Made by a program: the position numbers and the translations under genes | Shown: positions 14,652-28,270 of the stretch, in pieces | Layout of the letters: every line of letters starts with the position of its first letter | Numbering within the stretch: the first letter of the stretch is position 1 | Source of the DNA: a phage | Assembly (NCBI GenBank): GCA_012813795.1 | Contig: GCA_012813795.1_4087.1 | DNA length: 64,000 nucleotides | Direction: 5' to 3' (one strand) | The notes under the pieces: generated by a model | Database searches by the model: none | Told to the model about the DNA's origin: nothing | The model's input: the letters and a program-made list of their open reading frames with translations, nothing else

Positions 14652-14739
14652 TTTTATTTCTCTCTCTTTGTTAGGAGGGGAACCGTTTCCCCTCACTTGA
14701 TGTAAACTATTATACAGTACTAAGATACTTTGTCAATAC

Positions 14740-15657: not shown

Positions 15658-15744
15658 GTTACTTTCCTTTTTGTTAGGAGGGGAACTATTCCCCTCTCTA
15701 TGTAAAACATTATACTTGATTCTAAGTACTACACAAGTACTTTT

Positions 15745-15957: not shown

Positions 15958-16043
15958 TTTTCTTTCCTCAGTACTGGGGAGAATCATTTCTCCCCTTCAT
16001 GTAACTTATTATACAGTACTATAATCTATTGTCCAGTACTTTT

Positions 16044-16232
16044 TTAAAGTTTATGAATTAATTCTTTATCTAAACGATAGCGTACATTATTAATTGTAAC
16101 AGCATTGTTTTTAATGCTACGCTGTACAGGTCCACCAGCAATAACAAACGTTGCCTTATTACCCCGAACAATGATAGCACTTCCTGGATTGCCGTATTCA
16201 TCTTGTACTAAAATACTTGATAATTGTTCCAT
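16044..16232 (-). CDS. hypothetical small protein
   Basis: 62-aa ORF. Confidence 0.5.
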   Translation of the reverse strand: MEQLSSILVQDEYGNPGSAIIVRGNKATFVIAGGPVQRSIKNNAVTINNVRYRLDKELIHKL

Positions 16233-16393
16233 TTTGTTTTCCTCAGTACTGGGAAGGGTTATCCTCCCCTTGATATAAAATATTATACACTATCTATCAG
16301 TACTGTCAATACTTTTTAGTACTTATTTAAACGCTCTCAAACGCATTCTAACGAGCTAATCTATTTTGTAGTACTATCGGATAGGTATATACT

Positions 16394-16425
16394 AAAAAGC
16401 CCACCAGCGTTAACCAGTGGGCTAT
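16394..16425 (-). terminator. intrinsic terminator (hairpin AGCCCAC...GTGGGCT plus U-run on minus RNA)
   Basis: Inverted repeat agcccac/gtgggct with a run of A on the plus strand 3' of the minus-strand gene ending at 16430. Confidence 0.5.
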
Positions 16426-16429
16426 AATC

Positions 16430-16573
16430 TTACATCTTGCGGATAATCTTAACAGTATCTTTCACCGATTTACCGTCTTGCTGGCATTGTTCGATCATTG
16501 CGTATTGTTCTGTGGTCAGATCTTCGCCAGTTTTTTCCAGTACTGCTTCGATGAATGAATCCAGTGCGATCAT
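16430..16573 (-). CDS. hypothetical small protein (47 aa, below the ORF-track threshold)
   Basis: Hand-translated MIALDSFIEAVLEKTGEDLTTEQYAMIEQCQQDGKSVKDTVKIIRKM. Confidence 0.35.
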   Translation of the reverse strand: MIALDSFIEAVLEKTGEDLTTEQYAMIEQCQQDGKSVKDTVKIIRKM

Positions 16574-16663
16574 TTTCTTTCTCTCTTAGGTTAAGTTAAC
16601 TACTGTTTATAAAACTTATTATACAGTACTATCGTATAGAGTCAATAGTACTGGTAATATATT

Positions 16664-16843
16664 TTAGCGGTAGTCGTCGTATGCTTTATTCAACTGGCGA
16701 ATGTAACTTTCAAAGGCTTCGTCTACCGTTTCATACTCCAGAACATAATCACCATAGGAAACTACATACATACCTTTTTGATCTTCAAACGTCATGATGA
16801 TAGAATCCAGACCAACGATTTCAGTTTTTGCGATGATAGCCAT
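16664..16843 (-). CDS. hypothetical small protein
   Basis: Trimmed to Met MAIIAKTEIVGL at 16843. Confidence 0.5.
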   Translation of the reverse strand: MAIIAKTEIVGLDSIIMTFEDQKGMYVVSYGDYVLEYETVDEAFESYIRQLNKAYDDYR

Positions 16844-16925
16844 TTTTAATTCCTTAGTAGTGTAGTTGATAAAATCTATTATGCCAGTACTATCAATCTT
16901 TGTCAATAGTACTGTGATAATATTT

Positions 16926-17138
16926 TTAGTTAATGATAGTCAGTGTAAAATTGTAATCCCCTGCCTGGTATAGTATTTTGTCGCCGAACGTACCAACACG
17001 TTTCATATTGCAATAGATACCCATAACATTTTTTACATCTTTGATATTCCGAACGCCTGTGATATCCTTGTTGAAATTTTCATGATCAGAAAATAAAACT
17101 TGTTTTGCATTTTTCAGTACAGTGCAGATATTAGCCAT
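16926..17138 (-). CDS. hypothetical small protein
   Basis: Trimmed to Met MANICTVLKNAKQ at 17138; upstream cassette is duplicated at 16844-16925, 17142-17217, 19985-20075 and 20289-20380. Confidence 0.5.
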   Translation of the reverse strand: MANICTVLKNAKQVLFSDHENFNKDITGVRNIKDVKNVMGIYCNMKRVGTFGDKILYQAGDYNFTLTIIN

Positions 17139-17217
17139 TTTGTTTTCCTTAGTTGTCTTGATAAAATCTATTATGCCAGTACTATCAATCATTGTCAATA
17201 GTACTGTGATAATAATT

Positions 17218-17577
17218 TTAATCCTGTAAACCGTTCGGGAAGAAATCGAGGCGATCATCGTCGTTCTCGCGTTCGGCGTAAGCACTTTCTAACGCCTCGC
17301 CAGTGTGATCATCAGTTAGATAATCATCCTCATAGTTCACATCCACACCAGTGATGAAAAACTGGCTATCGTCTGGATCATTGAAATTAATTTTCTGAAT
17401 GTTTACAATAACTGTATTGATTCCCAGGACACCGCCATCAGCCGTTACAAAGTACTGATAGTTTTCACATCCACCACTATTGAAACCGTAATTGATTTCG
17501 GCCCGACCATCATTTAAACGCAGTGCCTGGGCGATGATTTCGTTTTCAAAGTTAGATTGAGCAATTGAGATAGTCAT
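17218..17577 (-). CDS. hypothetical protein (acidic C-terminus)
   Basis: Trimmed to Met MTISIAQSNFEN at 17577. Confidence 0.55.
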   Translation of the reverse strand: MTISIAQSNFENEIIAQALRLNDGRAEINYGFNSGGCENYQYFVTADGGVLGINTVIVNIQKINFNDPDDSQFFITGVDVNYEDDYLTDDHTGEALESAYAERENDDDRLDFFPNGLQD

Positions 17578-18012
17578 GATTCGTTTCCTTATTACCAGGG
17601 GAAACCGTTTCCCCTCTCGATGTAAAACATTATACGCCAATTGAGATAGTTTGCAAGTACTTTTTAAAAATAGTTTTCAGTACTCAATACTTATATAATA
17701 GATACACTTATGCACCCGGTGGGCTAGTGAGCTATCTCTCAATGAATATATAATAGCAAAATGGCTGACCGAAGTCAACCACTTTTTTCATTTATTTTTT
17801 AGCTTTTAGAATCGCCGCCTTTCGCGTCATGCCTTGCTTGATGTACTCCTTTACTTTCGCTTTACGTGCTTTCGCTTTATCTGCTTTCGTTTTAGGAGTA
17901 CTGTAAATTAAACCGTTAGGATTCATTTAAATCACCATAAAGAATAGATATGTTACTAACAATACCGCGATCAATGCACCGCCCAGGGCCGAACTGTAAT
18001 AAGCTAATGATT

Positions 18013-18165
18013 TCATTTTTTAGCCTGAAAATAATGTTTAATTTGAGCGGCGGTCAGTGCACAATTACGCAGGAAGTTTTCTGTATAACTGCGGCGAGTA
18101 CTGAAAGAAAATTGACCTTTGCCGTTGCCGATAGTAACATCAAACCGAGCATTATATTGTTTCAT
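18013..18165 (-). CDS. hypothetical small protein (50 aa, below the ORF-track threshold)
   Basis: Hand-translated MKQYNARFDVTIGNGKGQFSFSTRRSYTENFLRNCALTAAQIKHYFQAKK; two more short ORFs follow downstream. Confidence 0.3.
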   Translation of the reverse strand: MKQYNARFDVTIGNGKGQFSFSTRRSYTENFLRNCALTAAQIKHYFQAKK

Positions 18166-18476
18166 TTTGATTCTCCTTGTATCAGGGGAGAACCATTTCC
18201 CCCCTCTATGTAAAACATTATACAGTACTAAAAACTAATTGCAAGTATTATTTTTTAGATTTACGCAAACTTTCTACCATCTCAGGAGTAAGGCCCGGCG
18301 GGTAGGAAACCACTTCATCAACGAAACGTAAAGGGAATACCCCAGCGAAAGGTGAACATGCTTTCTTGGTATTACTCTTTTTTGATGCTTTCATTTCATA
18401 TTCCTTAATTAGTGGGGAGAACCATTTCTCCCCTCTATGTAAAACATTATACAGTACTGAAAACTAATTGCAAGTA

Positions 18477-18719
18477 TTATTTTAAACTTTGTGCGACTAA
18501 TTTCGCACGGTCAATCATATACTGCCATTTTTGGATCTCTTCTGGTAGAAAACGATATTCACCAATAACAATAGTGATACACTTTTCAGCCTGGTCAATG
18601 TATGTAGTATCAATCTCGACTTGAACGGGTACACGTTCGCCGTATTCAGTTCCTGGGATAATACAATCATTATCATAAGTAACAGTAGTTGCAGTGTCTT
18701 TGATTAAAATGGTTTCCAT
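18477..18719 (-). CDS. hypothetical small protein
   Basis: Trimmed to Met METILIKDTATT at 18719. Confidence 0.55.
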   Translation of the reverse strand: METILIKDTATTVTYDNDCIIPGTEYGERVPVQVEIDTTYIDQAEKCITIVIGEYRFLPEEIQKWQYMIDRAKLVAQSLK

Positions 18720-18789
18720 TATACTTTCCTCGTTAGGTGTAAGGGGAAAAAGTTTCCCCTCTATGTAAAACATTATACAGTACTGAAAA

Positions 18790-18999
18790 CTAATTGCAAG
18801 TATTATTTTCTAAAAAATGATTGTATGCTGCATCAACCACTCTTTCGATAACATACGCCATCGGCACGTATCCAACTACATGACTACAATAGAAAGGACT
18901 ACGATTAGAATCATCGTATGCAAATACTTTTTCAGGATCTGCATCAATCACATACATATTAACTTTGAGTATGTCAATCTTATCCTGTACAGTAAGCAT
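18790..18999 (-). CDS. hypothetical small protein
   Basis: 69-aa ORF. Confidence 0.5.
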   Translation of the reverse strand: MLTVQDKIDILKVNMYVIDADPEKVFAYDDSNRSPFYCSHVVGYVPMAYVIERVVDAAYNHFLENNTCN

Positions 19000-19004
19000 A
19001 TTAA

Positions 19005-19259
19005 TTAACCTTTTAAGTACTGGCTCAAATAGTCTTTTTGTTCTTCGGTGATTGGCGGCATCTTCCCTAGTACTGGATTGATGATATAATCCCCTGTAAC
19101 GTCATGATCCGCGTTCTCAGTACTAGCAACCGGACGAATACGGGCCATCGCCTGGGCTTGTTCTACGCTGTATTGTTCGTATAGTCTGCATTCTTCCGGT
19201 GTAGGCATTACATCGCTACGCTGCATAGGTTTAATGATGCTTTCTTGATTAACGTTCAT
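19005..19259 (-). CDS. hypothetical small protein
   Basis: 84-aa ORF. Confidence 0.5.
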   Translation of the reverse strand: MNVNQESIIKPMQRSDVMPTPEECRLYEQYSVEQAQAMARIRPVASTENADHDVTGDYIINPVLGKMPPITEEQKDYLSQYLKG

Positions 19260-19310
19260 GGTATTATCCTCAATATTAGCGGCCTAAATCGACCGCTAAC
19301 GATGTTTTGA

Positions 19311-19580
19311 TTAATAGGTGTATGGTTGACGCTCAAACAATGATTGCACGTTGTACGCCCCGCTAATGGGCTTCGCTGGCAAATCAATTTTATATTGCTC
19401 ACGCTTAAAGATGATAAAACGACAATTGTTCTTAATATCAAAATTGATTGAACGTTCCAGGAGTTTTCCATCGTGCACAAATACAAGATAACCGCTTGCT
19501 ACTTGTTTTGTAGTACTGGTTGCAACCATCGACCGACGAACATGCGTACCTGCATCGATTAAAGTACTGATATTTTTCAT
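19311..19580 (-). CDS. hypothetical small protein
   Basis: 89-aa ORF with RBS AGAGGA; preferred over overlapping 19256..19486. Confidence 0.5.
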   Translation of the reverse strand: MKNISTLIDAGTHVRRSMVATSTTKQVASGYLVFVHDGKLLERSINFDIKNNCRFIIFKREQYKIDLPAKPISGAYNVQSLFERQPYTY

Positions 19581-19660
19581 TTTACTATCCTCTTAATTTG
19601 ATTTAATTTCTTTCCCCTATGCAGACACTATATCAAAGTATCTGCATAAAGTAAAGCTAA

Positions 19661-19984
19661 TTAAAGATCTTTTTTGCGTTTAACATTCTGTACAGTACAA
19701 TGCAACGGGATAGACAAATCATTACACAAACGATAGAGGGAGGTTTCAACAGTATCAAGCCCGTCTACTGATTCCTTTAAGAGATCTAACGCCGTTTGTT
19801 GATATGCATCTTCATAGCCATAAGTAAATGATTCAACCGCCAGATCATTCACACCGTTATCCAGTTCAACGCTTACATGACAAGAATGATAAGTATTGCC
19901 ATATGAATCAGTCCAACGTTTACCGTCAACATTGATTGCACGGATTGCAGCCAGGGAAACGGTGTTAATGATAGTTTTAGCCAT
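19661..19984 (-). CDS. hypothetical protein; paralogue of 14057..14380
   Basis: 107-aa ORF with the shared RWTDS.GNTYHSC and VKRKKD motifs. Confidence 0.6.
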   Translation of the reverse strand: MAKTIINTVSLAAIRAINVDGKRWTDSYGNTYHSCHVSVELDNGVNDLAVESFTYGYEDAYQQTALDLLKESVDGLDTVETSLYRLCNDLSIPLHCTVQNVKRKKDL

Positions 19985-20075
19985 TTTAGTATTCCTTAAA
20001 TTAATATGCGTTGTCTTGATAAAATCTATTATGCCAGTACTATCAAACTATGTCAATAGTACTGTGATAATATTT

Positions 20076-20288
20076 TTACTTACTTTCTTTAGCTGCTTTA
20101 TGTGCTTCCACTGCCATAACCACATCAGCACGAACAAAGTTAGCAACCGTATCAGTGTAATATTTGATTGCATCGTCAACTTCTGCGAACGTCCGATACA
20201 TACCACACCAAGATACTTTATAACCTGCTTTCACTTGTTCCAGCTTAACCAGTGATTTGTTTACTTTGATTTTAGTAATGATAGCCAT
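20076..20288 (-). CDS. hypothetical small protein
   Basis: 70-aa ORF behind a duplicated promoter cassette. Confidence 0.5.
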   Translation of the reverse strand: MAIITKIKVNKSLVKLEQVKAGYKVSWCGMYRTFAEVDDAIKYYTDTVANFVRADVVMAVEAHKAAKESK

Positions 20289-20600
20289 TTTTTGTTTCCT
20301 CTTAGTTGTCTTGATAAAATCTATTATGCCAGTACTATCAAACTATGTCAATAGTACTGTGATAATATTTTTACTTACTTTTTGCTTTCTTTGATGCTTC
20401 AACCTGGTCAGCCCACTCTTTACCCCATACTTGAGCATTATAGTGATACTGACAAAGAGCAACGCCCCGCTTTAAACCAGTAATAGATTTTTTACCACAT
20501 TGACAAGTTTTCATTTTTCGTTTCCTCTTAGTGGGGAGAATCATTTCTCCCCTTGATGTAATGTATTATACTTTATCCGATTTACTTTGCAAGTACTTTT

Positions 20601-20828
20601 TTAATTTAATTCATCTAGGCAAAGGATACGATCTACACCTAAATCAGTTAAGCTAATAGACGGCACTTGATAGGTTTCAATGTATGCTACATCGGCCCAC
20701 TGACCGAACTCACCTGCCGCCCAGTTATACATTGCAAAATGTAATTCCGCACCTTTCTTATTAGTAATTACAGCAACAGTAGAAGAATTGCCAGTAGTAC
20801 CAGTTACGCGAGTGATTACGATAGCCAT
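20601..20828 (-). CDS. hypothetical small protein
   Basis: 75-aa ORF. Confidence 0.5.
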   Translation of the reverse strand: MAIVITRVTGTTGNSSTVAVITNKKGAELHFAMYNWAAGEFGQWADVAYIETYQVPSISLTDLGVDRILCLDELN

Positions 20829-21270
20829 TGTTTTGATTCCTATTCAGTAGTTGATGTATGTATTATGTCAGTACTTAAAACTATTGTCAAACTATTTTTT
20901 AAAGTTTATCAATGATTGATGCCGTTTCATTGATAGTCTTGCCGTGTTTTGCACACGCGATAACTGCTTTAAATTCCTTTGATGACCAATCTTTTTTCCT
21001 GCATACTGACATTACTTGTAAAGTGAAACAATCCAGTTCATAAGTATTCATCTTTATATCCTCAGTTAGTTAAGGTGTCTCGCCTTGATGTAATTAATTA
21101 TACGCTAATCTCTTAATCGTGCAAGTACTTTTTATTAGTTTTTATAAAATACTTTTAACGCTCTCAATCGCATTCTAACGGCCTTAACGCCACCAGCTAG
21201 GGCGATGTATCACATAAACGAAAAAAGCCCGTAGAATTGATTCTACGAGCTTTTAAGCTGGTTGATTGTA

Positions 21271-21678
21271 TTACTTACAGTTATAGACTATGATCCCGAC
21301 CGTCCCGTGTCCAATGACTTCAACGTTATACACTAACTTGCCATTTACACGCTCGCGAGCATAAAAAACGCGTTCATTCTCGGCATCGCGATACGCTGAT
21401 AAAAATTTACGGTTTGGATACGCTTTCAGTACTGGCGACTCAGTGAAAAAGTCACCGATAACTACACTAAAATGATCCCCGTGTTCTGTTAATGGTATAC
21501 TACGCGGATCAGTAAATTGCGGACGGTTATCAATAACAAAATATGGATTCACTGTACAAATCTTATCGCCCATCTCTGAATAAGTTGGCTTAGGATCATT
21601 AGCCTGGATGGATGATTTAGGGGCCGTACATCCCACCGCCAACAGTACACAACTAATAACCGCAATTTTTTTAAACAT
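21271..21678 (-). CDS. putative lipoprotein
   Basis: 135 aa; N-terminus MFKKIAVISCVLLAVGC is a signal peptide with lipobox. Confidence 0.6.
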   Translation of the reverse strand: MFKKIAVISCVLLAVGCTAPKSSIQANDPKPTYSEMGDKICTVNPYFVIDNRPQFTDPRSIPLTEHGDHFSVVIGDFFTESPVLKAYPNRKFLSAYRDAENERVFYARERVNGKLVYNVEVIGHGTVGIIVYNCK

Positions 21679-21711
21679 AATGTTTACTCCTATAAAATTG
21701 TATTTAAAAGA

Positions 21712-21734
21712 AAATCCCCTAGCAATCAGGGGAT
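21712..21734 (-). terminator. intrinsic terminator (AATCCCCT...AGGGGATT hairpin, U-run on minus RNA)
   Basis: Perfect 8-bp inverted repeat just 3' of gene 21743..22225. Confidence 0.55.
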
Positions 21735-21742
21735 TCGTTTGA

Positions 21743-22225
21743 TTATGCTACATCTTTACGGTGAGCTTCGATCCATTCCTCGCGAGTCATACCGCTGGCG
21801 TTAATCGCGTCCAGTACTACGGCAATGCAGTTACCGCGTACTGGTACAGTGTATTCCTCGCCATTATCCAGTACTACCGTGACACGTTCTTGAATCCATT
21901 TTTTAGCTTTTACTTCTGGCTTGTCTTCCCCGTATTTCGCTGCCAGGGCTTTACGGGCCATTTCGGTAACTACTTCCAGATCAAGCCCAGCGACGGCGGC
22001 GTTAATATCTTCAATCGTTTTCTGCAATTCTGCTTCGCGTGCTGCCTTCTCTGCTTCAATTGCCGCCGCTTTATTAGCTTGCAGTTCTTTCGCTTCGCTG
22101 TACGCAATGTTAAAATTGTTGCGTACTGCTTTCATGGTATCGCTATCCAGTTCAGCCAGGATCTCTGCCGCTACATTAGTTTCATTTGCTACCAGTGCTT
22201 TGATGAATGATTTTACGTTAGCCAT
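21743..22225 (-). CDS. hypothetical Ala/Glu/Lys-rich helical protein
   Basis: Trimmed to Met MANVKSFIKAL at 22225 with RBS GAGGA. Confidence 0.6.
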   Translation of the reverse strand: MANVKSFIKALVANETNVAAEILAELDSDTMKAVRNNFNIAYSEAKELQANKAAAIEAEKAAREAELQKTIEDINAAVAGLDLEVVTEMARKALAAKYGEDKPEVKAKKWIQERVTVVLDNGEEYTVPVRGNCIAVVLDAINASGMTREEWIEAHRKDVA

Positions 22226-22426
22226 TATGTAATTCCTCAATTAAAGTTTAGTTTACGTTAGATAGTGTATCAAAGTTTTCTCGACGTGTCCAGTTTTTCG
22301 TTCGACTTACTGGCGGTCTACTTAGTGCTCCCCGTCTTGATGTAATACATTCTACGCCTTTTTGTGGTAATGTCAACTACTTTTTTAAAACTATTTTCAA
22401 AGTATTCCAGTACTACGATACTACAA

Positions 22427-22452
22427 AAACAAAAAAGCCCACCAGGTGGGCT
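22427..22452 (-). terminator. intrinsic terminator (AGCCCACC-UGGU-GGGCU hairpin plus U-run on minus RNA)
   Basis: Inverted repeat with A-run on plus strand immediately 3' of gene 22459..22689. Confidence 0.6.
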
Positions 22453-22458
22453 ATGTAC

Positions 22459-22689
22459 TTAATCAGTAAGTAAAATATTAAACACTTTGCCATTTAACGT
22501 TATTGGTGTACTGCTACCAGGCTTGAGATCAGTTAGTACACCTGCAATAGCTTTTTCATTGGCGACCTTTCCAGTGTCCAATAGTACTACAGTACTGATA
22601 AGATTAACGCTCGTTTCAATATCATAATGCACGGCGTTAAGGAGTTGTGTAGTACTTCCAGCGTTAAGTAAAACTATTCGCTTAGTCAT
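22459..22689 (-). CDS. hypothetical small protein
   Basis: 76-aa ORF. Confidence 0.5.
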   Translation of the reverse strand: MTKRIVLLNAGSTTQLLNAVHYDIETSVNLISTVVLLDTGKVANEKAIAGVLTDLKPGSSTPITLNGKVFNILLTD

Positions 22690-22767
22690 GGTATTACCCC
22701 TTATACCAGGGGAACCGTTCCCCCTATGTAAAACATTATACGCGTTTAAAAACTATTGTATAGTACT

Positions 22768-23004
22768 TTATGATTTTTTATAAAACATTTCAGCAGTGAT
22801 ATTTTTACCCGTTGGTTGTACTTTATCCAGAATTTTTTGATGTCCAGGGCGACCAAATGAATAAGATCCGTAAACCGTAAACCAGTAGTTACCCTCAGTG
22901 TTTACATGTACAGCACAATAGGGAACGCCCCGCGATTCATCACTAGTAAAGTGTGCTACCGTTCCCGTTACATTCGAAGACGTTGATTTGATTTGTTCGA
23001 CCAT
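22768..23004 (-). CDS. hypothetical small protein; paralogue of 24154..24387
   Basis: Shared GVPYCAVHVNT.G.YW.TVYG.YSF.RP.H.KIL..V.PTGK.ITAE. Confidence 0.6.
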   Translation of the reverse strand: MVEQIKSTSSNVTGTVAHFTSDESRGVPYCAVHVNTEGNYWFTVYGSYSFGRPGHQKILDKVQPTGKNITAEMFYKKS

Positions 23005-23247
23005 TTTCTTATTCCTTAGTTACCAGGGGAACCGCTCCCCCTATGCAAAACATTATACGCGTTTAAAAACTAATAGCAAGTATTTTAATAAAAAGTATTT
23101 GGAAAATAATTGTTGACAAGTGCATCCAGTACTGGCATAATTACTACATCAAGACGAAACAGTCACTAACCCACCGGGTGCCGAGATCCGTCTATTAAAT
23201 GATTCAGTACTGAAAAAGTAACGGGGAGTTATTATCTCCCCGCGTTG

Positions 23248-23469
23248 TTATTTTGTAAGGTATAAACAGAAGTCACCTTTATTTGCTACGCCGCCAGTGT
23301 AACGCGATGAATAGTTAGTAACGTCCTGGACTTCTGCTATTACCAGTGTATCATCATTCAATTCGTCGCAGAAGCAAACGGCTGGATCTTTTACGCCGAT
23401 ATTGTCGGCATGTTCCCGCATAGATTTAACCAGTGCTTCAAGTTGGGAAAGGGTAGTAATGTTAGCCAT
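23248..23469 (-). CDS. hypothetical small protein
   Basis: Trimmed to Met MANITTLSQ at 23469. Confidence 0.5.
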   Translation of the reverse strand: MANITTLSQLEALVKSMREHADNIGVKDPAVCFCDELNDDTLVIAEVQDVTNYSSRYTGGVANKGDFCLYLTK

Positions 23470-23555
23470 TGTATTTTCCTCATTACCAGGGAGAACCATT
23501 TCTCCCCTTGATGTAAACTATTATACAGTACTAAAAACTAATTGCAAGTACTTTT

Positions 23556-23759
23556 TTAATTTAATTGCTTTAACACATAATCATAAACACCACGCACATC
23601 ATTGATCATCGCCTCACGGTTAGCAGGTAACGCAGAAGGATCGCCACTATCCCAGGCATTGATAAAACTCCCCAAATCATGATAGATTTTATTTTGTAAG
23701 CCGATCAACTGTAATTCTTTTTCTTCAAGCTCTTTGATACGGTCGATTAAATCACTCAT
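23556..23759 (-). CDS. hypothetical small protein
   Basis: 67-aa ORF. Confidence 0.5.
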   Translation of the reverse strand: MSDLIDRIKELEEKELQLIGLQNKIYHDLGSFINAWDSGDPSALPANREAMINDVRGVYDYVLKQLN

Positions 23760-23776
23760 TAGATAATCCTCAGTAC

Positions 23777-24064
23777 TTAATTGTAAGATCCGCAGCGGTT
23801 GCAGTAGTTCCCGTCTTCCTCGTCATCGTCAACGAATTGACCGACGAAATGATCTACTTTCTCTTTGAGGCTTTTATAATCCTCTTCTACTTCCTTTAAA
23901 CGTTTCTGGTAGTATTCCAGGGCTTGCACATACGCCGCCTCAGCAGTTTTCTCCCGCATAGCTAAATTCATGCCGCGTGTTTCATCATAAAGCCAATAAC
24001 CATCGGTGCACTGGCTGATAGAAAATGATTTGGTTAACACTTTATAGTCAATTACTTTGCTCAT
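23777..24064 (-). CDS. hypothetical small protein with C-terminal Cys cluster
   Basis: 95-aa ORF; C-terminal YCNRCGSYN. Confidence 0.5.
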   Translation of the reverse strand: MSKVIDYKVLTKSFSISQCTDGYWLYDETRGMNLAMREKTAEAAYVQALEYYQKRLKEVEEDYKSLKEKVDHFVGQFVDDDEEDGNYCNRCGSYN

Positions 24065-24153
24065 TAGATAATCCTCTGTAAATGCAGGGGAACCATTTCC
24101 CCCGCCTCGATATAAAGTATTATACTCGTTTAAACTTAGTATGCAAGTACTTT

Positions 24154-24387
24154 TTAGTGCTTAGTAAAATATTTTTCTGCGGTGATATCCTTTCCGGTAG
24201 GCTTCACTACTTCCAGGATCTTACTATGTGCCGGACGAGCAAACGAATACCCCCCGTATACAGTTAACCAATAGTCACCGTCAGTGTTTACGTGTACAGC
24301 ACAATAGGGTACACCTTTATCAGTATCAGCGATGGAATGTACTTTCGTTCCGGTCCGGCTTGTAGTCGTTTGAATTTGTTCGATCAT
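24154..24387 (-). CDS. hypothetical small protein; paralogue of 22768..23004
   Basis: 77-aa ORF. Confidence 0.6.
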   Translation of the reverse strand: MIEQIQTTTSRTGTKVHSIADTDKGVPYCAVHVNTDGDYWLTVYGGYSFARPAHSKILEVVKPTGKDITAEKYFTKH

Positions 24388-24444
24388 GATGCTTACTCCT
24401 GGTTATAGGCGGGAACCACTCCCGCCATTGATTCAGTACTGAAA

Positions 24445-24675
24445 TTACATTCCAACCATTGCCGCACGAATTGCAGTAGTGCTATACTTAAAGCCGTCCG
24501 GCGTTGACTGACCGCGTAAAGTATCCATCATTAGCCGGGCGGCGGCATCGCGGTTATTTGTCTCATTGATGCAATCCAGGGCGTGACGATACAACCAGCT
24601 ATCATTGTTAATCCAAAGGCTTACATTCCAATGAGTTTTGTTTTTGTGACCTAAGAACATTTTTGATTTAGCCAT
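24445..24675 (-). CDS. hypothetical small protein; paralogue of 25230..25469
   Basis: Shared GHKNKT.WNVSLWINND and C-terminal PDGFKYSTTAIRAAMVGM. Confidence 0.6.
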   Translation of the reverse strand: MAKSKMFLGHKNKTHWNVSLWINNDSWLYRHALDCINETNNRDAAARLMMDTLRGQSTPDGFKYSTTAIRAAMVGM

Positions 24676-24880
24676 TTTGAAAATCCTCGTTTGATTTGAG
24701 CGGGGAACTATTCCCCGTCCTGATGTAAAACATTATACGCCTTTAAACATAGTTTGCAAGTACTTTTTAAAAATAGTTTTAATCACTTTCCTATAGATAC
24801 ACTCCCGCACCCTATGGGCTATCGCCTTGTATCCGGCTTGTAAGTATTATCTCACTAAGCCGGATAATGGTCAAGTACTT

Positions 24881-25147
24881 TTATTCAAGTACTGCAATCT
24901 TTTTAGTACGGTACACAGTAACACGGTTGCCCTTGCGGTCGTGCTTTATTTCTACCACTCGACGCGATACACTATCAGGACTTTTTAACGCCGATAACCA
25001 GTACTGTAACGATCTGGCGGTGCTACGCTTTACAATGACCCAACGTTCACCCCTGGCTGATTGTACGCCCATATCTTTAAACGTTGCACCGTCAACCTTT
25101 GCCGCTTGCCGAGCTTGTTCACGCGTTTCAAAGTATATAATATTCAT
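24881..25147 (-). CDS. hypothetical protein; paralogue of 13566..13961
   Basis: Trimmed to Met MNIIYFETREQAR at 25147. Confidence 0.55.
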   Translation of the reverse strand: MNIIYFETREQARQAAKVDGATFKDMGVQSARGERWVIVKRSTARSLQYWLSALKSPDSVSRRVVEIKHDRKGNRVTVYRTKKIAVLE

Positions 25148-25229
25148 GCTGATACCCCATCGTTGATGTATGAATAAAATCCTATTATAAAGTACTATCA
25201 CCGTGCAATAGTACTTTAAATCTATTCTC

Positions 25230-25469
25230 TTACATTCCAACCATCGCGGCACGGATCGCCGTAGTGCTATACTTGAATCCGTCTGGAGTTTTATCTTGTC
25301 CAGTTTGCTCTAAAAATAGCATCATATGACGGGCCGCATCATTACGATTAGTATTAGCGTCGATAAATTCTTTCGCCAGACGATACAATGACTCATCGTT
25401 ATTAATCCAAAGGCTTACATTCCACTGAGTTTTGTTTTTGTGACCGTTGAAAGTTTTAGTAGTAGCCAT
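25230..25469 (-). CDS. hypothetical small protein; paralogue of 24445..24675
   Basis: 79-aa ORF. Confidence 0.6.
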   Translation of the reverse strand: MATTKTFNGHKNKTQWNVSLWINNDESLYRLAKEFIDANTNRNDAARHMMLFLEQTGQDKTPDGFKYSTTAIRAAMVGM

Positions 25470-25554
25470 AATTAAAAATCCTCTTAATTATAGTGGGGAA
25501 CTATTCCCCACCTGATAGAAAGTATTATACGCCTTTAAACTTAGTTTGCAAGTA

Positions 25555-25788
25555 CTATTTTTTCAGTACTGGTAAACCTTTGATCTCACCTGGCTGTACT
25601 TCCTCAAAGGTCGCCGCCATCATACGGCTATCATCTTCCTTGCACTCTTCCATTGCATCACAAAAATGATTAATAACGTCCGGTGCAACGTCAACCACAT
25701 CAAACAAGCCAACCTCAGTGCAACGGCTTAAAGCGTTTAACAGGTCAGTCAGTGCAACGGATTGAGAAACAGTTAAGATAGTACTCAT
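25555..25788 (-). CDS. hypothetical small acidic protein
   Basis: 77-aa ORF. Confidence 0.5.
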   Translation of the reverse strand: MSTILTVSQSVALTDLLNALSRCTEVGLFDVVDVAPDVINHFCDAMEECKEDDSRMMAATFEEVQPGEIKGLPVLKK

Positions 25789-25882
25789 AAAATTAATCTC
25801 TTAATTATAGTGGGGAACTATTCCCCACCTGATAGAAAGTATTATACGCCTTTAAACTTAGTATGCAAGTACTTTTTAAAAC

Positions 25883-26245
25883 TTATTCGTAAATCTTGCC
25901 ACTGTCAGCCCATACCAGGAAACGCGGCATATTATCCCATGCATCTTGTTTCAAGTTTAAGCCGTGCAATACTTCTGTACTTTCCATCCCTGGTACTGGT
26001 TTACTATACACCGCAAACATTTCGCCCATGTACTGATACGCCATCGTTAAATCACTGGCGATCATCTTATGGATCATCGCATCAAGCATCACAGTAGCGG
26101 CGTATTGTTCACGCTTAAGCGGCAACATTGCAATCAATTCCCGATAAGCTGAAATATGAATCTTTACAGTCTCAGCCGGAAGATCTTTCATCTCTTCGCG
26201 AAAGTTAACCAGGTTAGCAATGATTTTAGTGATTTGAGTCGCCAT
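25883..26245 (-). CDS. hypothetical protein
   Basis: 120-aa ORF behind a promoter/stem-loop cassette at 26250-26340. Confidence 0.55.
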   Translation of the reverse strand: MATQITKIIANLVNFREEMKDLPAETVKIHISAYRELIAMLPLKREQYAATVMLDAMIHKMIASDLTMAYQYMGEMFAVYSKPVPGMESTEVLHGLNLKQDAWDNMPRFLVWADSGKIYE

Positions 26246-27030
26246 CGTTTTAATTCCTATTAAAGTGAGTTAGGAGCGTTTCCCCCGTCTCGATGTAAAA
26301 CATTATACGCCGTTAAACATAGTATGCAAATACTTTCTGCAAATACTTTTAAAATAGTTTTCTTTCTATATAGGAGTACTATCATTCAGTACTGAATCAA
26401 TCCAGGGAGTACAATTATTCAGTACTATACCCTCAAAACGTCCTCAGTCGCTTTCTAACGCATTAATACACCTAAGCTATACATTTGCACCACTCCCAAC
26501 AATCCAGGGCTTTACGGGCCGTTTAAACGCGTTAAATTATTTTCAATTATTTTGTTTTTAGCTATTGACTCAGTACAGAAAAAGCGTATAATTACTACAT
26601 AGACGCGAGAAAGCGGATACCCCAGGGGGTGCGGAACTACGCCCAAAATTCAGTAAATTTAAAAAGGATACACTCCCGCACCCTAGCAGGTCAAAGCACT
26701 TTCTCAGTACTGAATCATAGTACCATAGTACGCCCCATGATAGCAAGCAAATTAATTAAAACTTTTTGCATCCAGGGTATTGCTTTATTTTTCCAGTACT
26801 GTATAATAGTTCCATCAAGTCGAGAAAGACTCAAGCCCAACGGGTGCATAGTTACGCCCAAAATTCAGTACTAGATTATTTTTTAAAAATATTCATCCAG
26901 GCGGTTGACATTGCCCCCAGTTTATTAGATAATGATTCCAGATTCAGAAAAATCTAACTCCAGATACTGCGGGGAAACCATCCCCACGCGGTAGGGGAAC
27001 TAATGGAAAAAACAGTATAAAATTTTGATT

Positions 27031-27170
27031 TAGCCGTCTATACATCCAGACGTTTAGCCGTCCAAACGTCTAGCGGTACAGCCATCTAGCAGTACAGCCA
27101 TCTAGCCACCTAGAGGGATAGCCATCTTTACTTCCAGACTTCTGGAGGGCTAGACATCTCTACGTCCAAA
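27031..27170. repeat. iteron-like direct repeats (gtacagccatctagc x2 plus degenerate tagcc / acgtct / ccatct units)
   Basis: Direct 15-16-mers at 27074-27089 and 27090-27105 with several partial copies in a stretch lacking ORFs. Confidence 0.6.
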
Positions 27171-27734
27171 ATCCACACAGGGTTACTACGCCCAAAATCC
27201 GTCAGTACTATACCATAGATCTATCTTTGAGAAGGGAGTATTCAGTACTGCCATCATAGTCCTCACTATGTTACCCTAGGAGGATGAAGACTATCATGTA
27301 GTACTGAATACTTTTAAGGGGAATATCATCACATTGCGTGATGCATTATATATTAGATTAATATCAGTACTGCTACCATTCTGTTAATAACAGTACTGTT
27401 TATATTACGAAAAAAAGAGGTTGTCAAAGATGAACCACTACATAGGAGGATTCAATCTCTTCTGTACTGTCTCACGACAGGGGGAATAAGGCTCTGAATT
27501 GTTTGCGGCAATCCATCACTCTATGTAGAACATTATACAGTACTGAATCATAATGTCAATAACTTTCTTACATTTGCAGTACTAAAATCGTATCTTCTGT
27601 ATCTCTTCAAAACTCATTATATCCCAATAATCCTATATGTCCCAACGTGAATTCCAACTTTCGAAGATCCAACTTTTATTTCATAGGTACTCCAAAATTT
27701 TTACGATCCAGATTTACGATGGAGTACTAACCAA

Positions 27735-27850
27735 CTTTTTGCTGGAGCCTCAAGGGGTATTCGGAATTTTCCCCAATGGGTAATCGGGATTTTTGACGAA
27801 GGGTAAATTGAACTTTTTTGAATAGGTGATTGGGAGTTTTCAGTACTGGT
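27735..27850. repeat. four degenerate ~19-bp direct repeats (gggtaNtcgGaatttt type)
   Basis: gggtattcggaatttt, gggtaatcgggattttt, gggtaaattgaactttttt, ggtgattgggagtttt in tandem. Confidence 0.5.
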
Positions 27851-28270
27851 CATTCCGTGATTACTTTTGATTACATTTGACATGTTATGCAAAGTTGCAG
27901 TACGGTAAAAATATGTAAATTTTGGGCGACTTCATTTGCCTACTTAGTGGGATATCAGTACTGAATCATATAGGGGTAATCCTTCAGTACTGAATACTTT
28001 CCTGTACTCTAGTACACTCTATTACACTCTAGTACTCAATACTAATCACTACTAACCACTACAATGATTATAAATGATTACTTAAATGTTTATATATGAT
28101 TACTTATGACTACCTATGATTACGGGGTTTAGCCTGGGGAGAATCCTAGTGATCGCATTTGTCCAGGCTGAATTTTAACAATTCAGACGTCGAGCAGGCT
28201 GAATTTTAACATATGCAACATATGTTAAAGCCTGTATAATGCTTACACTACGGAGCTTCCCCTAGCTATA

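What the first reader, a model, noticed from the sequence alone, without database searches (positions are those of the whole stretch)
26300..28270. Two-kilobase non-coding region rich in iteron-like direct repeats
This stretch has no convincing ORFs but dense short direct repeats (gtacagccatctagc x2 with partial copies at 27031-27170, four ~19-bp repeats at 27735-27850, atgattac repeats at 28030-28125, caggctgaattttaaca x2 at about 28185-28225) and an excess of the palindrome cagtactg. There are also plus-strand promoter-like boxes (TTGACT-N16-TATAAT at about 26568-26595; TTGCTTTA-N14-TATAAT at about 26772-26800, resembling a T4 middle-promoter MotA box) followed by a conserved acgcccaaaat(t/c)c(a)gt motif in three copies. 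It is a candidate replication origin and/or small-RNA locus.
Basis: partly seen in the sequence, partly recalled or inferred. Interest (0 to 1): 0.65.

Follow-up and report, generated by a model that had tools for sequence, protein, structure and literature searches.

The report
Jumbo phage terminal-repeat end region
The flagged 2-kb gene-free stretch is the conserved control region at the end of a giant coliphage's 20.5-kb terminal repeat: the physical end of the packaged DNA maps inside it, next to repeat arrays, early promoters and small structured RNA elements, and nothing marks it as a replication origin.

Summary
The window comes from an Asteriusvirus-type jumbo coliphage (121Q/PBECO4/G17 group). 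Positions 26246-28270 have no credible genes, and the window's strongest 8-bp and 10-bp periodic arrays lie there.

The interpretation needs revising. The window contains a whole ~20.5-kb direct terminal repeat (DTR, 7454-27944). Its right boundary, which is the physical genome end, maps to 27944|27945. This rests on exact homology to four relatives, one with termini checked by restriction digests.

The region is therefore the last 1.7 kb of the DTR plus 326 bp of unique DNA. It holds:
- a terminal motif GACTTC-N11|cut, seen in three further genera;
- an 18-unit period-8 array (YAGMCRTC), also found near the ends or terminal repeats of T5-like and T7-like phages;
- a 10-bp phased array and an invariant 78-bp block just outside the repeat;
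- σ70-type promoters on both strands;
- three of nine copies of a DTR-restricted, promoter-proximal structured RNA element with a covarying hairpin.

I found no DnaA boxes, AT-rich unwinding element or initiator gene. The closest analogues are T5's untranslated repeat-end region (injection stop signal) and T7's terminal short-repeat and promoter region. Functions are inferred, not shown.

The parts
7454..27944 (.). Direct terminal repeat (about 20,491 bp) as carried in this window. It consists of small minus-strand early-type genes plus the non-coding end region.
   Evidence: G17's repeat is 1-20668 = 350150-370817 at 100% identity. Both boundaries map to the window by homology. Unique DNA of G17 aligns on both sides of it.
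26246..26340 (-). Promoter (TTTGCA-17-TATAAT, 26330-26302) and 5' leader of the last repeat gene, 25883-26245.
   Evidence: The gene matches phrog_7352.
26372..26427 (.). Two copies of a GGAGTACnATnATTCAGTACT module. The number of AGTACT modules here varies between relatives.
   Evidence: (family D9) and the alignment.
26565..26592 (+). σ70-type promoter TTGACT-16-TATAAT, driving element U1.
   Evidence: (11/12).
26595..26654 (+). Type-A structured leader/small-RNA element U1. It contains the first ACGCCCAAAAT motif. It is 89-94% identical over 52-65 nt in other genera (Munch, fENko-Kae01, XbC2, Hallingskeid).
   Evidence: Covariance model 54.8 bits, E 1.4e-11. Cross-genus hits. Structure.
26656..26715 (-). 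Type-A element convergent with and abutting U1. Its second hairpin plus a T-run scores as an intrinsic terminator (26684-26665).
   Evidence: Covariance model 42.5 bits. Terminator-like site. Convergent abutting pairs recur in eight related loci.
26780..26807 (+). Promoter TTGCTT-16-TATAAT with CAGTACTG abutting the -10 box.
26810..26869 (+). Type-A element U2, containing the second ACGCCCAAAAT motif.
   Evidence: Covariance model 49.7 bits.
26905..26933 (+). Promoter TTGACA-17-GATAAT, followed by hairpins at 26940-26955 and 26969-26989. Transcription from it would run through the period-8 array.
   Evidence: (11/12). The same layout is seen in Serratia phage BF.
27031..27174 (.). Period-8 array: 18 units in exact register, consensus YAGMCRTC.
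   Evidence: Indels among relatives come in multiples of 8. Homologous arrays lie near the ends or terminal repeats of Rak2-like, T5-like and T7-like phages.
27180..27209 (+). Degenerate 3' half of a type-A element (GGGTTACTACGCCCAAAATCCGTCAGTACT), containing the third ACGCCCAAAAT motif.
27430..27489 (+). Possible 19-codon micro-ORF with a Shine-Dalgarno-like AAAGAGG. It lies antisense to transcription from the 27559-27532 promoter. Evidence is weak.
   Evidence: The frame is kept through a 3-nt indel in most relatives but is interrupted by a stop in UE-S1.
27532..27559 (-). Perfect σ70 consensus promoter (TTGACA-16-TATAAT, with CAGTACTG in the spacer). It points away from the genome end, 385-412 bp from it, and is almost fully conserved.
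   Evidence: 12/12. Conservation 1.00 and 0.95 in the two 20-nt windows that cover it.
27616..27645 (-). Second promoter-like site pointing away from the genome end (10/12).
27752..27840 (.). Four sub-terminal repeats of about 22 bp, each ending in a T-run. Copy number varies among relatives. Similar G-rich/T-tract repeats lie near the ends of Munch, XbC2 and Serratia BF.
27858..27880 (+). Two TGATTAC repeats 10 bp apart, 65-86 bp inside the genome end.
27926..27944 (+). Terminal motif GCGACTTCATTTGCCTACT. The physical right end of the genome, which is the right boundary of the repeat, falls after 27944.
   Evidence: The records of G17, WPEC3, BF17 and fEgEco12 end at the homologous ...GACTTCctctGCCTACT|. 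fEgEco12's termini were confirmed with PhageTerm and restriction digests (PMC13070987). GACTT(C/T)-N11| also ends the Serratia BF, XbC2 and Muenster records.
27945..28005 (.). First unique DNA beyond the repeat. It consists of AGTACTGAAT modules whose number varies among relatives.
28006..28123 (.). Array of about 12 units with 10-bp (helical) phasing, ending in ATGATTAC/ATGACTAC units.
   Evidence: highest lag-10 signal in the window.
28086..28163 (.). 78-bp block that is invariant or nearly so in all 10 aligned Asteriusviruses, 142-219 bp outside the repeat. It overlaps the last three 10-bp units and an AGCCTGG...CCAGGCT inverted repeat.
28164..28229 (.). 31-bp tandem duplication private to this phage (CAGGCTGAATTTTAACA x2), and a palindrome TTTAACATATG-CAA-CATATGTTAAA (28205-28229) downstream of the stop of gene 28271-28513(-).

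Best explanation
The region is the conserved, gene-free end of the phage's ~20.5-kb direct terminal repeat (DTR) together with the first 326 bp of unique DNA. It is a cis-acting genome-end and early-transcription control region, not an origin built from iterons.

Shown:
- The physical end of packaged DNA maps to 27944|27945, 11 nt after a GACTTC motif that is conserved at that offset.
- The end is embedded in repeat arrays: sub-terminal T-tract repeats and TGATTAC pairs inside the repeat, and a 10-bp phased array plus an invariant 78-bp block outside it.
- A period-8 array lies 0.77-0.91 kb inside the end.
- σ70-type promoters point both away from the end (towards the ~50 small early-type genes of the repeat) and towards it.
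- Three copies of a DTR-restricted, promoter-proximal structured RNA element lie here.

Inferred:
- In replicating concatemers, the packaging nuclease recognises the terminal motif and the helically phased repeats beside it and makes the sequence-specific cut that creates this end.
- On infection, host RNA polymerase fires the near-consensus promoters immediately. The minus-strand ones start the early programme. The plus-strand ones make short non-coding RNAs, and in the copy at the right genome end those transcripts run towards the DNA end.
- The period-8 array acts as DNA, as a binding or structural element used in end processing or DNA entry. The reason is that unrelated terminal-repeat phages carry the same array near their ends.
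For: Identity of the phage: the region is 80-94% identical to 42 Asteriusvirus-type records.

Mapping of the repeat and the end:
- G17's repeat is exactly 20,668 bp.
- G17, WPEC3 (Thailand), BF17 (Poland) and fEgEco12 (Finland; termini verified by PhageTerm and restriction digests) all end at ...GACTTCctctGCCTACT|. The window has ...GACTTCatttGCCTACT|TAGTGG at 27926-27944.
- Six further records (BF17, vB_Ec-M-J, CRJP21, E9.1, ELP-22, fEgEco12) start 747-757 bp from the array, consistent with the same end.
- In fENko-Kae01 and Muenster, repeats defined by PhageTerm begin with ~1.3 kb that carries at most a doubtful small ORF, followed by genes pointing inward.
- Serratia BF, XbC2 and Muenster end with GACTT(C/T)-N11|.

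Constraint: 26350-27760 is 80-100% conserved among 10 phages, mostly 90-100%, similar to the gene sequence immediately to its left in the same alignment (0.78-0.98). 28086-28163 is essentially invariant.

Arrays:
- The strongest lag-8/16 and lag-10 periodicities of the 64-kb window are here.
- Indels in the period-8 array come in multiples of 8.
- The array recurs 40-930 bp from record ends or inside annotated terminal repeats in Rak2-like phages, T5-like phages (PR1 at 9605-9705 in its 1-10461 repeat; VF16 'Left terminal repeat'; Thalassaviruses) and podophages (PGT2 at 40-104, PSK2 at 12-60, NNA-G4 R-LTR).

Promoters: one 12/12 match and two 11/12 matches to σ70 consensus.

RNA element:
- The 5' hairpin has different stem sequences in 24 of 29 distinct copies; mean folding energy is -3.4 against -1.19 (sd 0.27) for shuffles.
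- Covariation score is 0.45 against 0.31 (sd 0.02) for shuffles (0 of 500 reach it) and 0.21 or less for slid controls.
- All nine covariance-model hits in the window lie in the repeat. All 46 hits in other loci are in Rak2-like loci.

Precedent: the related phage PA5oct has a 39-kb repeat whose genes are highly transcribed early and which holds two abundant non-coding RNAs.
Against: - The end is mapped by homology only. No reads or virion DNA of this phage were available.
- No tool here shows which protein binds any repeat, which genome end is packaged or ejected first, or that any promoter fires.
- Over the whole region, the count of promoter-like sites at the relaxed threshold is no higher than in shuffles (9 against 10.7). 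Only the near-perfect matches stand out.
- Single-sequence folds of U1 and U2 are not significantly stable (z -1.2 and -1.9).
- The period-8 array lies downstream of the 26905 promoter, so a role as RNA cannot be excluded.
- Its orientation relative to the nearest repeat boundary is opposite in T5-like PR1.
- The left repeat boundary (7453|7454) has no GACTTC-N11 motif, so the two ends are not made by one symmetric site.
- The phAPEC6 authors inferred headful packaging from terminase similarity.
Confidence: 0.72

Rival explanations
1. T5-like injection stop region. The repeat is a first-step-transfer segment, and this untranslated repeat region halts DNA entry until early repeat-encoded proteins allow the rest of the genome in.
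For: - The layout matches T5. T5 has a 1,662-bp untranslated region (9194-10856) straddling the end of its left terminal repeat at 10139, rich in repeats and palindromes and more conserved than neighbouring genes. Here the figures are 2,025 bp, with 1,699 bp inside the repeat and 326 bp outside.
- The period-8 array lies in the equivalent untranslated region of T5-like PR1, about 770 bp from the repeat end, beside paired DnaA boxes. In the window it is 770-913 bp from the repeat end.
- Other Rak2-like genera carry the same AATGAGAATCATTATCATT-type palindromes as T5's region.
- The repeat contains only small early-type genes.
Against: - There are no DnaA boxes in the region.
- This window lacks the Fur-box-like palindromes (best match 13 of 19).
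- T5 itself lacks the period-8 array.
- No large A1-like gene is visible among the repeat ORFs, and the ten largest ORFs have unknown function.
- All repeat genes point away from the end that carries the non-coding region, which fits T7-style entry from that end at least as well.
- No two-step transfer has been reported for these phages in the papers I searched.
Confidence: 0.13
2. T7-like leading end. The end at 27944 enters the cell first, and the inward-pointing consensus promoters 300-410 bp from it recruit host RNA polymerase, which starts the early programme and possibly helps pull DNA in. The short-repeat arrays correspond to T7's terminal short-repeat arrays.
For: - The order is end, then repeats, then the 12/12 promoter at 27559-27532 and the 10/12 promoter at 27645-27616, then about 50 co-oriented genes that continue past the left repeat boundary.
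- The T7-like podophage PGT2 carries the same array 40-104 bp from the start of its record and ends with GCGACCTCATTTG-N7|. The window ends with GCGACTTCATTTG-N6|.
- fEgEco12, Muenster and fENko-Kae01 records start at this end, with genes pointing inward.
Against: - Which end leaves the capsid first is unknown.
- The repeat is at both ends, so gene orientation alone does not decide the question.
- Three promoters in the region point towards the end.
- The resemblance to T7's A1-A3 promoters and short-repeat arrays rests on my memory of T7, not on a test made here.
Confidence: 0.2
3. Replication origin. Either the direct repeats are iterons for an initiator, or one of the untranslated promoters primes a T4-type R-loop origin.
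For: - Dense direct repeats of about 22 bp and 10-bp phased repeats.
- Strong promoters with no downstream gene.
- The cumulative GC-skew minimum of the window falls at 27.6-28.3 kb although genes stay on the minus strand on both sides.
- Relatives have a T4-like replisome (CBB paper).
Against: - No DnaA boxes.
- No AT-rich unwinding element; minimum GC is 0.29 and the region is GC-richer than average.
- No initiator gene next to it.
- The skew switch coincides exactly with a mapped physical end, which explains it equally well in a circularly joined assembly.
- The repeats recur at the ends of unrelated terminal-repeat phages rather than next to replication genes.
- In T5 the analogous region is not an origin, since its origins are near the genome centre (Davison preprint).
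Confidence: 0.1
4. The region is primarily a small-RNA locus. Its main products are trans-acting regulatory RNAs (U1, U2, the convergent partner, and a ~270-nt RNA containing the array) that target host or phage transcripts or proteins.
For: - Promoter plus covarying hairpin.
- U1 is 89-94% identical across genera while its flanks are not alignable.
- One member has a terminator-like 3' end.
- The 26941-27215 stretch folds with z = -2.9.
- PA5oct has abundant non-coding RNAs in its repeat.
Against: - Six of the nine elements lie elsewhere in the repeat. For the two that I read in detail (17690-17749 and 11922-11981), the element sits upstream of a second promoter and a gene, which is how a cis-acting leader module behaves.
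- No Rfam family matches.
- No similarity to E. coli genomes at E up to 1 (short seed matches would not be seen).
- This reading does not explain the arrays, the mapped end or the invariant block outside the repeat.
Confidence: 0.25

Closest known systems
Bacteriophage T5 'Repeat Region 3': the untranslated region at the end of the left terminal repeat that contains the injection stop signal (Heusterspreute 1987; Wang 2005; Davison bioRxiv 10.1101/866236)
   Same: - Both are long gene-free stretches (T5 1,662 bp, here 2,025 bp) straddling the inner boundary of a long terminal repeat that carries small pre-early or early genes.
- Both are packed with direct repeats, inverted repeats and palindromes.
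- Both are at least as conserved as nearby genes.
- T5-like genera (Priunavirus PR1, Vibrio Thalassaviruses) carry the same period-8 array in that region.
   Different: - No DnaA-box pairs here.
- No IRC/IRD-type long inverted-repeat pairs were identified.
- No A1/A2 homologues were identified.
- T5 itself has no period-8 array.
- The repeat here is twice as long and all its genes are co-oriented.
- Two-step DNA transfer is unproven here.
T7-group genome ends: terminal repeat with short-repeat arrays and the strong early host promoters A1-A3 near the leading end (Dunn & Studier 1983; recalled from memory)
   Same: - Arrays of short direct repeats lie within tens to hundreds of bp of a sequence-specific end.
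- Near-consensus host promoters a few hundred bp from the end point inward.
- The T7-like Ermolevavirus PGT2 shares the actual array sequence (TTAGCCGTCYAAACGTCTAG) and a similar terminal motif.
   Different: - T7's repeat is 160 bp and its repeat unit differs in sequence.
- Here the repeat is 20.5 kb and the array lies 0.77 kb from the end.
- The terminases are not known to be related.
- The comparison with T7 itself was not run here.
Non-coding RNAs in the terminal repeat of the related jumbo phage PA5oct (Lood et al. 2020, PMC7318152)
   Same: Both are Rak2-related phages with a long repeat full of early genes and with untranslated, actively transcribed stretches inside the repeat.
   Different: The PA5oct RNAs are 236-451 nt. 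The authors report no sequence similarity to anything except phage MIJ3. They are not at the repeat boundary. Nothing here shows that the RNAs are related.
Promoter-proximal antitermination RNA elements (lambda nut boxB, HK022 put). This is a resemblance recalled from memory only.
   Same: The type-A element is a short structured RNA placed just after early σ70 promoters, in a region dense in intrinsic terminators. Its first hairpin has a short GC stem and a purine-rich loop (GAGAAA, GAACAA) reminiscent of boxB.
   Different: No sequence or covariance-model match to any Rfam family. No N-like or Q-like protein was identified. Every mini-operon has its own promoter, so antitermination is not obviously needed.
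Iteron-type replication origins of plasmids and phages
   Same: Clustered direct repeats of about 20 bp and helically phased repeats.
   Different: No adjacent initiator gene, no DnaA boxes and no AT-rich unwinding element. The repeats sit around a genome end.

Membership tests
Asteriusvirus direct-terminal-repeat boundary (physical genome end) | The sequence is homologous to the point where independently deposited linear records with both repeat copies end. | tested here: met
   G17, WPEC3, BF17 and fEgEco12 all end at ...GACTTCctctGCCTACT|. The window has ...GACTTCatttGCCTACT| at 27926-27944.
Asteriusvirus direct-terminal-repeat boundary (physical genome end) | Read-start pile-up and a two-fold coverage step in virion DNA of this phage itself. 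| not testable with these tools
   No reads are available. For relatives this was done by coverage (G17), PhageTerm (Sharanji) and PhageTerm plus restriction digests (fEgEco12).
T5-type injection-stop untranslated region | A large untranslated, repeat-rich region straddling the inner end of a long terminal repeat. | tested here: met
   26246-28270 is gene-free and the repeat ends at 27944. T5's equivalent is 9194-10856 with the repeat ending at 10139.
T5-type injection-stop untranslated region | Paired DnaA boxes (TTWTNCACA) within inverted repeats. | tested here: not met
   There is no TTWTNCACA on either strand in 26.3-28.3 kb; the nearest are at 20947 and 35834.
T5-type injection-stop untranslated region | A1/A2 genes in the repeat that are required for second-step transfer. 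| tested here: inconclusive
   The largest repeat ORF is 194 aa and the ten largest hit only unknown-function PHROGs. The smaller ORFs were not scanned, and I did not search with A1 or A2 directly.
T5-type injection-stop untranslated region | DNA entry pauses at this region in vivo. | not testable with these tools
   This needs blender or Southern entry experiments.
T7-type terminal short-repeat array and early-promoter end | An array of short direct repeats close to a sequence-specific genome end. | tested here: met
   The period-8 array is 770-913 bp from the end. T-tract repeats are 104-192 bp from it. The 10-bp array is 62-179 bp beyond it. The same array sequence lies 40-104 bp from the record start in T7-like PGT2.
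T7-type terminal short-repeat array and early-promoter end | This end is the one ejected first, and transcription from the near-terminal promoters assists entry. | not testable with these tools
   Only promoter orientation and quality could be scored.
Iteron or DnaA-type replication origin | Iterons next to an initiator gene, DnaA boxes and an AT-rich unwinding element. | tested here: not met
   no DnaA boxes; no AT-rich element; no initiator-like neighbour.
T4-type R-loop origin | A promoter followed by an easily unwound region that forms a persistent RNA-DNA hybrid. | tested here: inconclusive
   Untranslated promoters are present. No distinct AT-rich element lies downstream. R-loop formation cannot be tested here.
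Bacterial or phage small RNA gene | Promoter, conserved secondary structure with covariation, and a terminator. | tested here: inconclusive
   Promoters are present. Covariation in hairpin 1 and compatible changes in hairpin 3 are seen. Only the minus-strand member has a terminator-like 3' end. Single-sequence fold z-scores are weak. Expression is untested.
Any curated Rfam family or tRNA | A score at or above the family threshold. | tested here: not met
   No tRNA. No Rfam hit at gathering score in the window. Only two chance-level plant-miRNA hits at E 0.6 and 2.5 in the region.

The most novel reading that the evidence does not exclude
Rak2-like jumbo phages deliver their DNA in two steps, as T5 does. 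The ~20-kb terminal repeat with its ~50 small genes would be a first-step-transfer segment, and this untranslated region would be the stop or hold signal. The period-8 YAGMCRTC array, shared by T5-like, T7-like and jumbo terminal-repeat phages of gamma-proteobacteria, would be the common cis element that a host or virion factor grips during DNA entry or end processing. The DTR-restricted type-A element would be a new class of early-transcript RNA signal.
Probability: 0.12. Interest if true: 0.8.

Novelty: new variant of a known kind. Interest (0 to 1): 0.5.

Why it matters
- **Genome coordinates and a coverage pitfall.** The result fixes where this phage's genome physically ends. The two-fold coverage step at that point could be mistaken for an origin signal.
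- **Phage engineering.** It defines the cis-acting DNA that must be kept if these 350-kb phages are engineered or rebooted: the terminal motif, the phased arrays and the invariant block.
- **A shared element at phage genome ends.** Three unrelated groups of terminal-repeat phages (Rak2-like jumbo phages, T5-like phages and some T7-like phages) share one short-repeat array near their ends. This gives a comparative handle on two old questions: how exact long terminal repeats are made, and what stops or paces DNA entry in T5-type infection.
- **A new RNA element.** A previously undescribed structured RNA element sits at early promoters and is confined to the terminal repeat.

Tried and rejected
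- **tRNA, tmRNA and Rfam.** No tRNA or tmRNA. No Rfam hit at gathering score in the window. An E-value scan of the region gave only two chance-level plant-miRNA hits.
- **Coding potential.** The five longest ORFs in the region have no PHROG or Pfam match. The 19-codon micro-ORF is not conserved in UE-S1.
- **DnaA boxes and an AT-rich unwinding element.** Both absent.
- **CAGTACTG as a pure promoter element.** Rejected, because only 9 of 52 sites have a 9/12 or better σ70 context. It is part of a genome-wide excess of AGTACT.
- **Fur-box-like palindromes.** They are present in T5's region and in Munch, Muenster and Hallingskeid, but absent from this window.
- **Host similarity of U1, U2 and the array.** No match in 5,426 E. 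coli genomes.
- **RNAalifold on the rigid MAFFT alignment.** It recovered only hairpin 3. Hairpin 1 needed per-sequence folding and an explicit pair count.
- **A shared motif at the two repeat boundaries.** None found.
- **Whole-genome GC skew of a relative.** Not done, because it needs about 8 fetches of 50 kb against the fetch cap.
- **Literature searches.** They found no description of this region in Asteriusvirus or Rak2-like phages.

Full report
**What the window is.** The flagged stretch and its flanks are 80-94% identical to 42 records of 310-386 kb jumbo phages of E. coli and Salmonella. These belong to the genus Asteriusvirus (121Q, PBECO4, G17, phAPEC6); the closest is phage A4 at 94%. 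There are no tRNA or tmRNA genes in the window and no Rfam family reaches its threshold.

**Checking the observation.**
- Positions 26246-28270 lie between two minus-strand genes that match phage protein families: 25883-26245 (phrog_7352) and 28271-28513 (phrog_11711).
- The five longest ORFs between them (48-81 aa) match nothing in PHROGs or Pfam.
- The annotations of 121Q, SP27, A4, BF17 and phAPEC6 list no CDS there, and G17 lists only a predicted terminator.
- Two of them are exceptional. An array of 18 units in exact 8-nt register (27031-27174, consensus YAGMCRTC) gives the highest lag-8 and lag-16 autocorrelation in the 64 kb. A roughly 12-unit array with 10-bp phasing (28006-28123) gives the highest lag-10 value. 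Both reach 0.66 against a mean of 0.27 and sd of 0.05.
- The exact CAGGCTGAATTTTAACA pair is a 31-bp tandem duplication absent from all nine aligned relatives.
- CAGTACTG occurs 52 times against about 1 expected. Ten copies are in the region, but the excess is genome-wide.
- Only 9 of the 52 sites sit in a good σ70 promoter context.
- The core AGTACT occurs 252 times. I estimate about 22 from base composition. It lies in a TTTTCAGTACTGAAAA context.

**The key result: the region holds a physical genome end.**
- Records of 366-384 kb hit the query twice, and the hits lie about 20-21 kb from one record end.
- G17's first 20,668 bp are identical to its last 20,668 bp. That is a direct terminal repeat (DTR), and the authors inferred it from sequence coverage.
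- The repeat in G17 ends at ...GACTTCctctGCCTACT|TAGTGG. WPEC3 and BF17, deposited by other laboratories, end at the same homologous base.
- So does fEgEco12, whose termini were confirmed with PhageTerm and restriction digests.
- The window reads ...GCGACTTCatttGCCTACT|TAGTGGG, which places the end at 27944|27945.
- The other boundary maps to 7453|7454.
- The window therefore contains one whole repeat of about 20,491 bp with unique DNA on both sides. This is what a circularly joined or collapsed assembly of a linear genome gives.
- The flagged region is the last 1,699 bp of the repeat plus the first 326 bp of unique DNA.

**Conservation within the genus.** I aligned 10 Asteriusviruses.
- 26350-27760 is 80-100% conserved, mostly 90-100%. 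The gene sequence immediately to its left in the same alignment scores 0.78-0.98.
- The 150 bp on either side of the end are variable, except for the terminal motif itself.
- 28086-28163, which lies outside the repeat, is essentially invariant.
- Indels in the period-8 array come in multiples of 8.

**Conservation beyond the genus.** A sensitive search picked out two sub-elements.
- Element U1 (about 26585-26650) is 89-94% identical in Salmonella phage Munch, Klebsiella phage fENko-Kae01, Xanthomonas phage XbC2 and Erwinia phage Hallingskeid. It is about 70% identical in the RaK2 group.
- The period-8 array recurs in Eneladusviruses (Serratia BF, Erwinia pEa_SNUABM phages, Yersinia fHe-Yen9).
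- It also recurs in T5-like Demerecviridae: Providencia PR1, Vibrio Pontus, Thalassa, pVp-1 and VF16, and Aeromonas phages.
- It recurs in T7-like and other podophages too: PGT2, phiKT, PSK2 and NNA-G4.
- Where ends are known, the array lies 12-930 bp from a record end or inside an annotated terminal repeat.
- In PR1 it sits in the untranslated region at the end of the left terminal repeat, about 770 bp from the repeat boundary and next to paired DnaA boxes.
- In fENko-Kae01 and Muenster, the PhageTerm-defined repeat begins with about 1.3 kb that carries at most a doubtful small ORF, followed by genes pointing inward.
- Oriented like the window, the records of Serratia BF, XbC2 and Muenster end with GACTT(C/T)-N11|. 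Podophage PGT2 ends with GCGACCTCATTTG-N7|, against GCGACTTCATTTG-N6| in the window.
- Serratia BF has the same order of parts as the window: U1 with a convergent partner, a promoter with hairpins, the array, a degenerate ...CCCAAAAT element, AGTACT modules, T-tract repeats, then GACTTC-N11.

**The promoters and the 'acgcccaaaat' motif.**
- Near-consensus σ70 promoters occur on both strands. On the plus strand they are at 26565-26592 (11/12), 26780-26807 and 26905-26933 (11/12). On the minus strand they are at 27559-27532 (12/12 and almost fully conserved), 27645-27616 and 26330-26302.
- The first two plus-strand promoters are followed by members of a family I call type-A.
- A type-A element has a -10 box, then a 5' hairpin whose stem sequence differs from copy to copy and whose loop is purine-rich. 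Four nucleotides later comes CCCnnnGGGTGC, then 8 nt, then YRYCY, which pairs with GGGUG.
The third copy, at 27188, is a degenerate element after the array.
- The 5' hairpin forms in 24 of 29 distinct copies. Mean folding energy is -3.4 kcal/mol, against -1.19 (sd 0.27) for shuffles.
- On a fixed-column alignment, all four of its pairs show changes on both sides. The covariation score is 0.45, against 0.31 (sd 0.02) for shuffles (0 of 500 reach it) and 0.21 or less for slid controls.
- A covariance model finds nine copies in the window, all inside the repeat (8851-26869). Three are in the flagged region.
- In other loci it finds 46 copies, all in Rak2-like phages and none in the T5, PR1, Pontus, PGT2 or phiKT loci.
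- Convergent, abutting pairs such as 26595-26654(+) with 26656-26715(-) recur in eight related loci.
- For the two copies elsewhere in the repeat that I read in detail, the element follows a terminator whose stem contains the -35 box. It precedes a second promoter with a GGGGA...TCCCC leader and then a gene.
- The elements are therefore promoter-proximal RNA modules of the early region. In the flagged region they are not followed by genes.
- Their expression and function are untested. The resemblance to nut or put antitermination sites is only a lead from memory.

**Why I do not call it an origin.**
- There are no DnaA boxes in the region.
- There is no AT-rich unwinding element, and the region is slightly GC-richer than the genome.
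- There is no initiator-like neighbouring gene.
- The cumulative GC-skew minimum of the window is indeed at 27.6-28.3 kb. It coincides with the mapped end.
- It arises because the minus-strand genes at 28.3-32.2 kb have C-rich coding strands, unlike the repeat genes. That does not discriminate between an origin and an end.
- Coverage-based tests would see a two-fold step here because of the repeat itself.
- In T5, the closest analogue is not an origin.
- I cannot exclude a T4-style R-loop origin that uses one of the untranslated promoters.

**How it most likely works.**

Shown:
- The position of the end, by homology to experimentally supported ends.
- The arrays and their conservation.
- The promoter matches.
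- The covarying RNA hairpin.
- The restriction of the RNA element to the repeat.

Inferred:
- The packaging nuclease recognises GACTTC-N11 together with the helically phased repeats and the invariant block beside it, and makes the sequence-specific cut that creates this end from concatemers.
- Host RNA polymerase fires the consensus promoters at once on entry. The minus-strand ones open the early programme, which runs away from this end through about 50 co-oriented genes.
- The plus-strand promoters give short non-coding RNAs.
- The period-8 array acts as DNA in end processing or DNA entry, because unrelated terminal-repeat phages keep it near their ends.

Two sharper readings remain open. One is a T5-like injection stop, supported by the layout and the shared array, and weakened by the absence of DnaA boxes and of visible A1/A2 genes. 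The other is a T7-like leading end, supported by inward promoters 300-410 bp from the end and by the array and terminal motif shared with a T7-like phage. Which end enters first is unknown.

**Novelty.** The terminal repeats of this genus are published. In the papers I could search, I found no description of the untranslated end region, the terminal motif, the cross-family array or the type-A element. I rate it a new variant of a known kind, namely the end regions of terminal-repeat phages as in T5 and T7, and of moderate interest.

Noticed in passing
whole window (for example 1843-58374): The palindrome AGTACT occurs 252 times in 64 kb, against about 22 expected from my own estimate based on base composition. 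It usually appears as TTTT(C)AGTACT(G)AAAA. It occurs in coding and non-coding DNA, at 6.2 per kb in the terminal repeat and 2.9 per kb outside. GTAC occurs 600 times against 211 expected. Only 9 of the 52 CAGTACTG sites have a promoter context. Related genera are also rich in it. The cause is unknown; a protein-binding or modification site is possible.
   Followed up: partly
whole window: Several palindromic hexamers are completely absent (AGCGCT, CAGCTG, CCATGG, ACCGGT, AGGCCT, CCCGGG). This looks like restriction-site avoidance and contrasts with the AGTACT excess.
   Followed up: no
window 28271-32200: A run of tightly packed minus-strand genes of about 60 aa just outside the repeat has positive plus-strand GC skew, meaning C-rich coding strands. 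This is the opposite of all other minus-strand genes in the window. Neighbouring genes cross-match in BLAST, which suggests tandem paralogues.
   Followed up: partly
window 28304-28363: A perfect tandem repeat GTACTGATT x 6.7 lies inside gene 28271-28513(-) and is absent from all aligned relatives. It lengthens the predicted protein to 80 aa, against 63 aa for the homologue in G17.
   Followed up: partly
window 11980-12020 and 17750-17790 (minus strand); also G17 L001 1461-1482 and similar sites: There are overlapping terminator/promoter modules. The stem of an intrinsic terminator (GGGATTGAC-TCCG-GTCAGTCCC) contains the -35 box TTGACT of the next promoter, and its T-run leads into the -10 box TATTAT.
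   Followed up: partly
window 7454-7620: This is the left repeat boundary (7453|7454, |AGCAATTACCCGCCCC). It is followed by a 16-bp tandem repeat TTGACTCAATTATTTT x 2.4-2.9 (7540-7586) and AATCATT x 3 (7594-7617). The first ~150 bp are diverged from G17, and there is no GACTTC-N11 motif.
   Followed up: partly
L016 (Munch), L021 (Muenster), L022 (Hallingskeid), L017 (T5 9470-9640): Palindromes matching the E. coli Fur-box consensus GATAATGATAATCATTATC at 16-17 of 19 positions sit between convergent type-A elements in the terminal regions of other Rak2-like genera. They also occur in T5's injection-stop region. They are absent from this window and from G17.
   Followed up: partly
window 50236-52155 (-): A 639-aa ORF carries an internal repeat of about 200 bp. 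The reverse-strand ATGATTA motif recurs at 50684, 50870, 51074, 51278, 51476, 51680, 51893 and 52085.
   Followed up: no
window 12029-12613 (-): The largest ORF in the repeat (194 aa, phrog_4301) has weak, sub-threshold protein-kinase hits (Pkinase E 0.0026, 17.6 bits against a cut-off of 31.7). From memory, this recalls the early kinase gp0.7 of T7.
   Followed up: no
window 27430-27489 (+): A 19-codon ORF (MNHYIGGFNLFCTVSRQGE) has a Shine-Dalgarno-like AAAGAGG. It lies antisense to transcription from the perfect promoter at 27559-27532. The frame is kept through a 3-nt indel in most relatives but is broken in UE-S1.
   Followed up: partly
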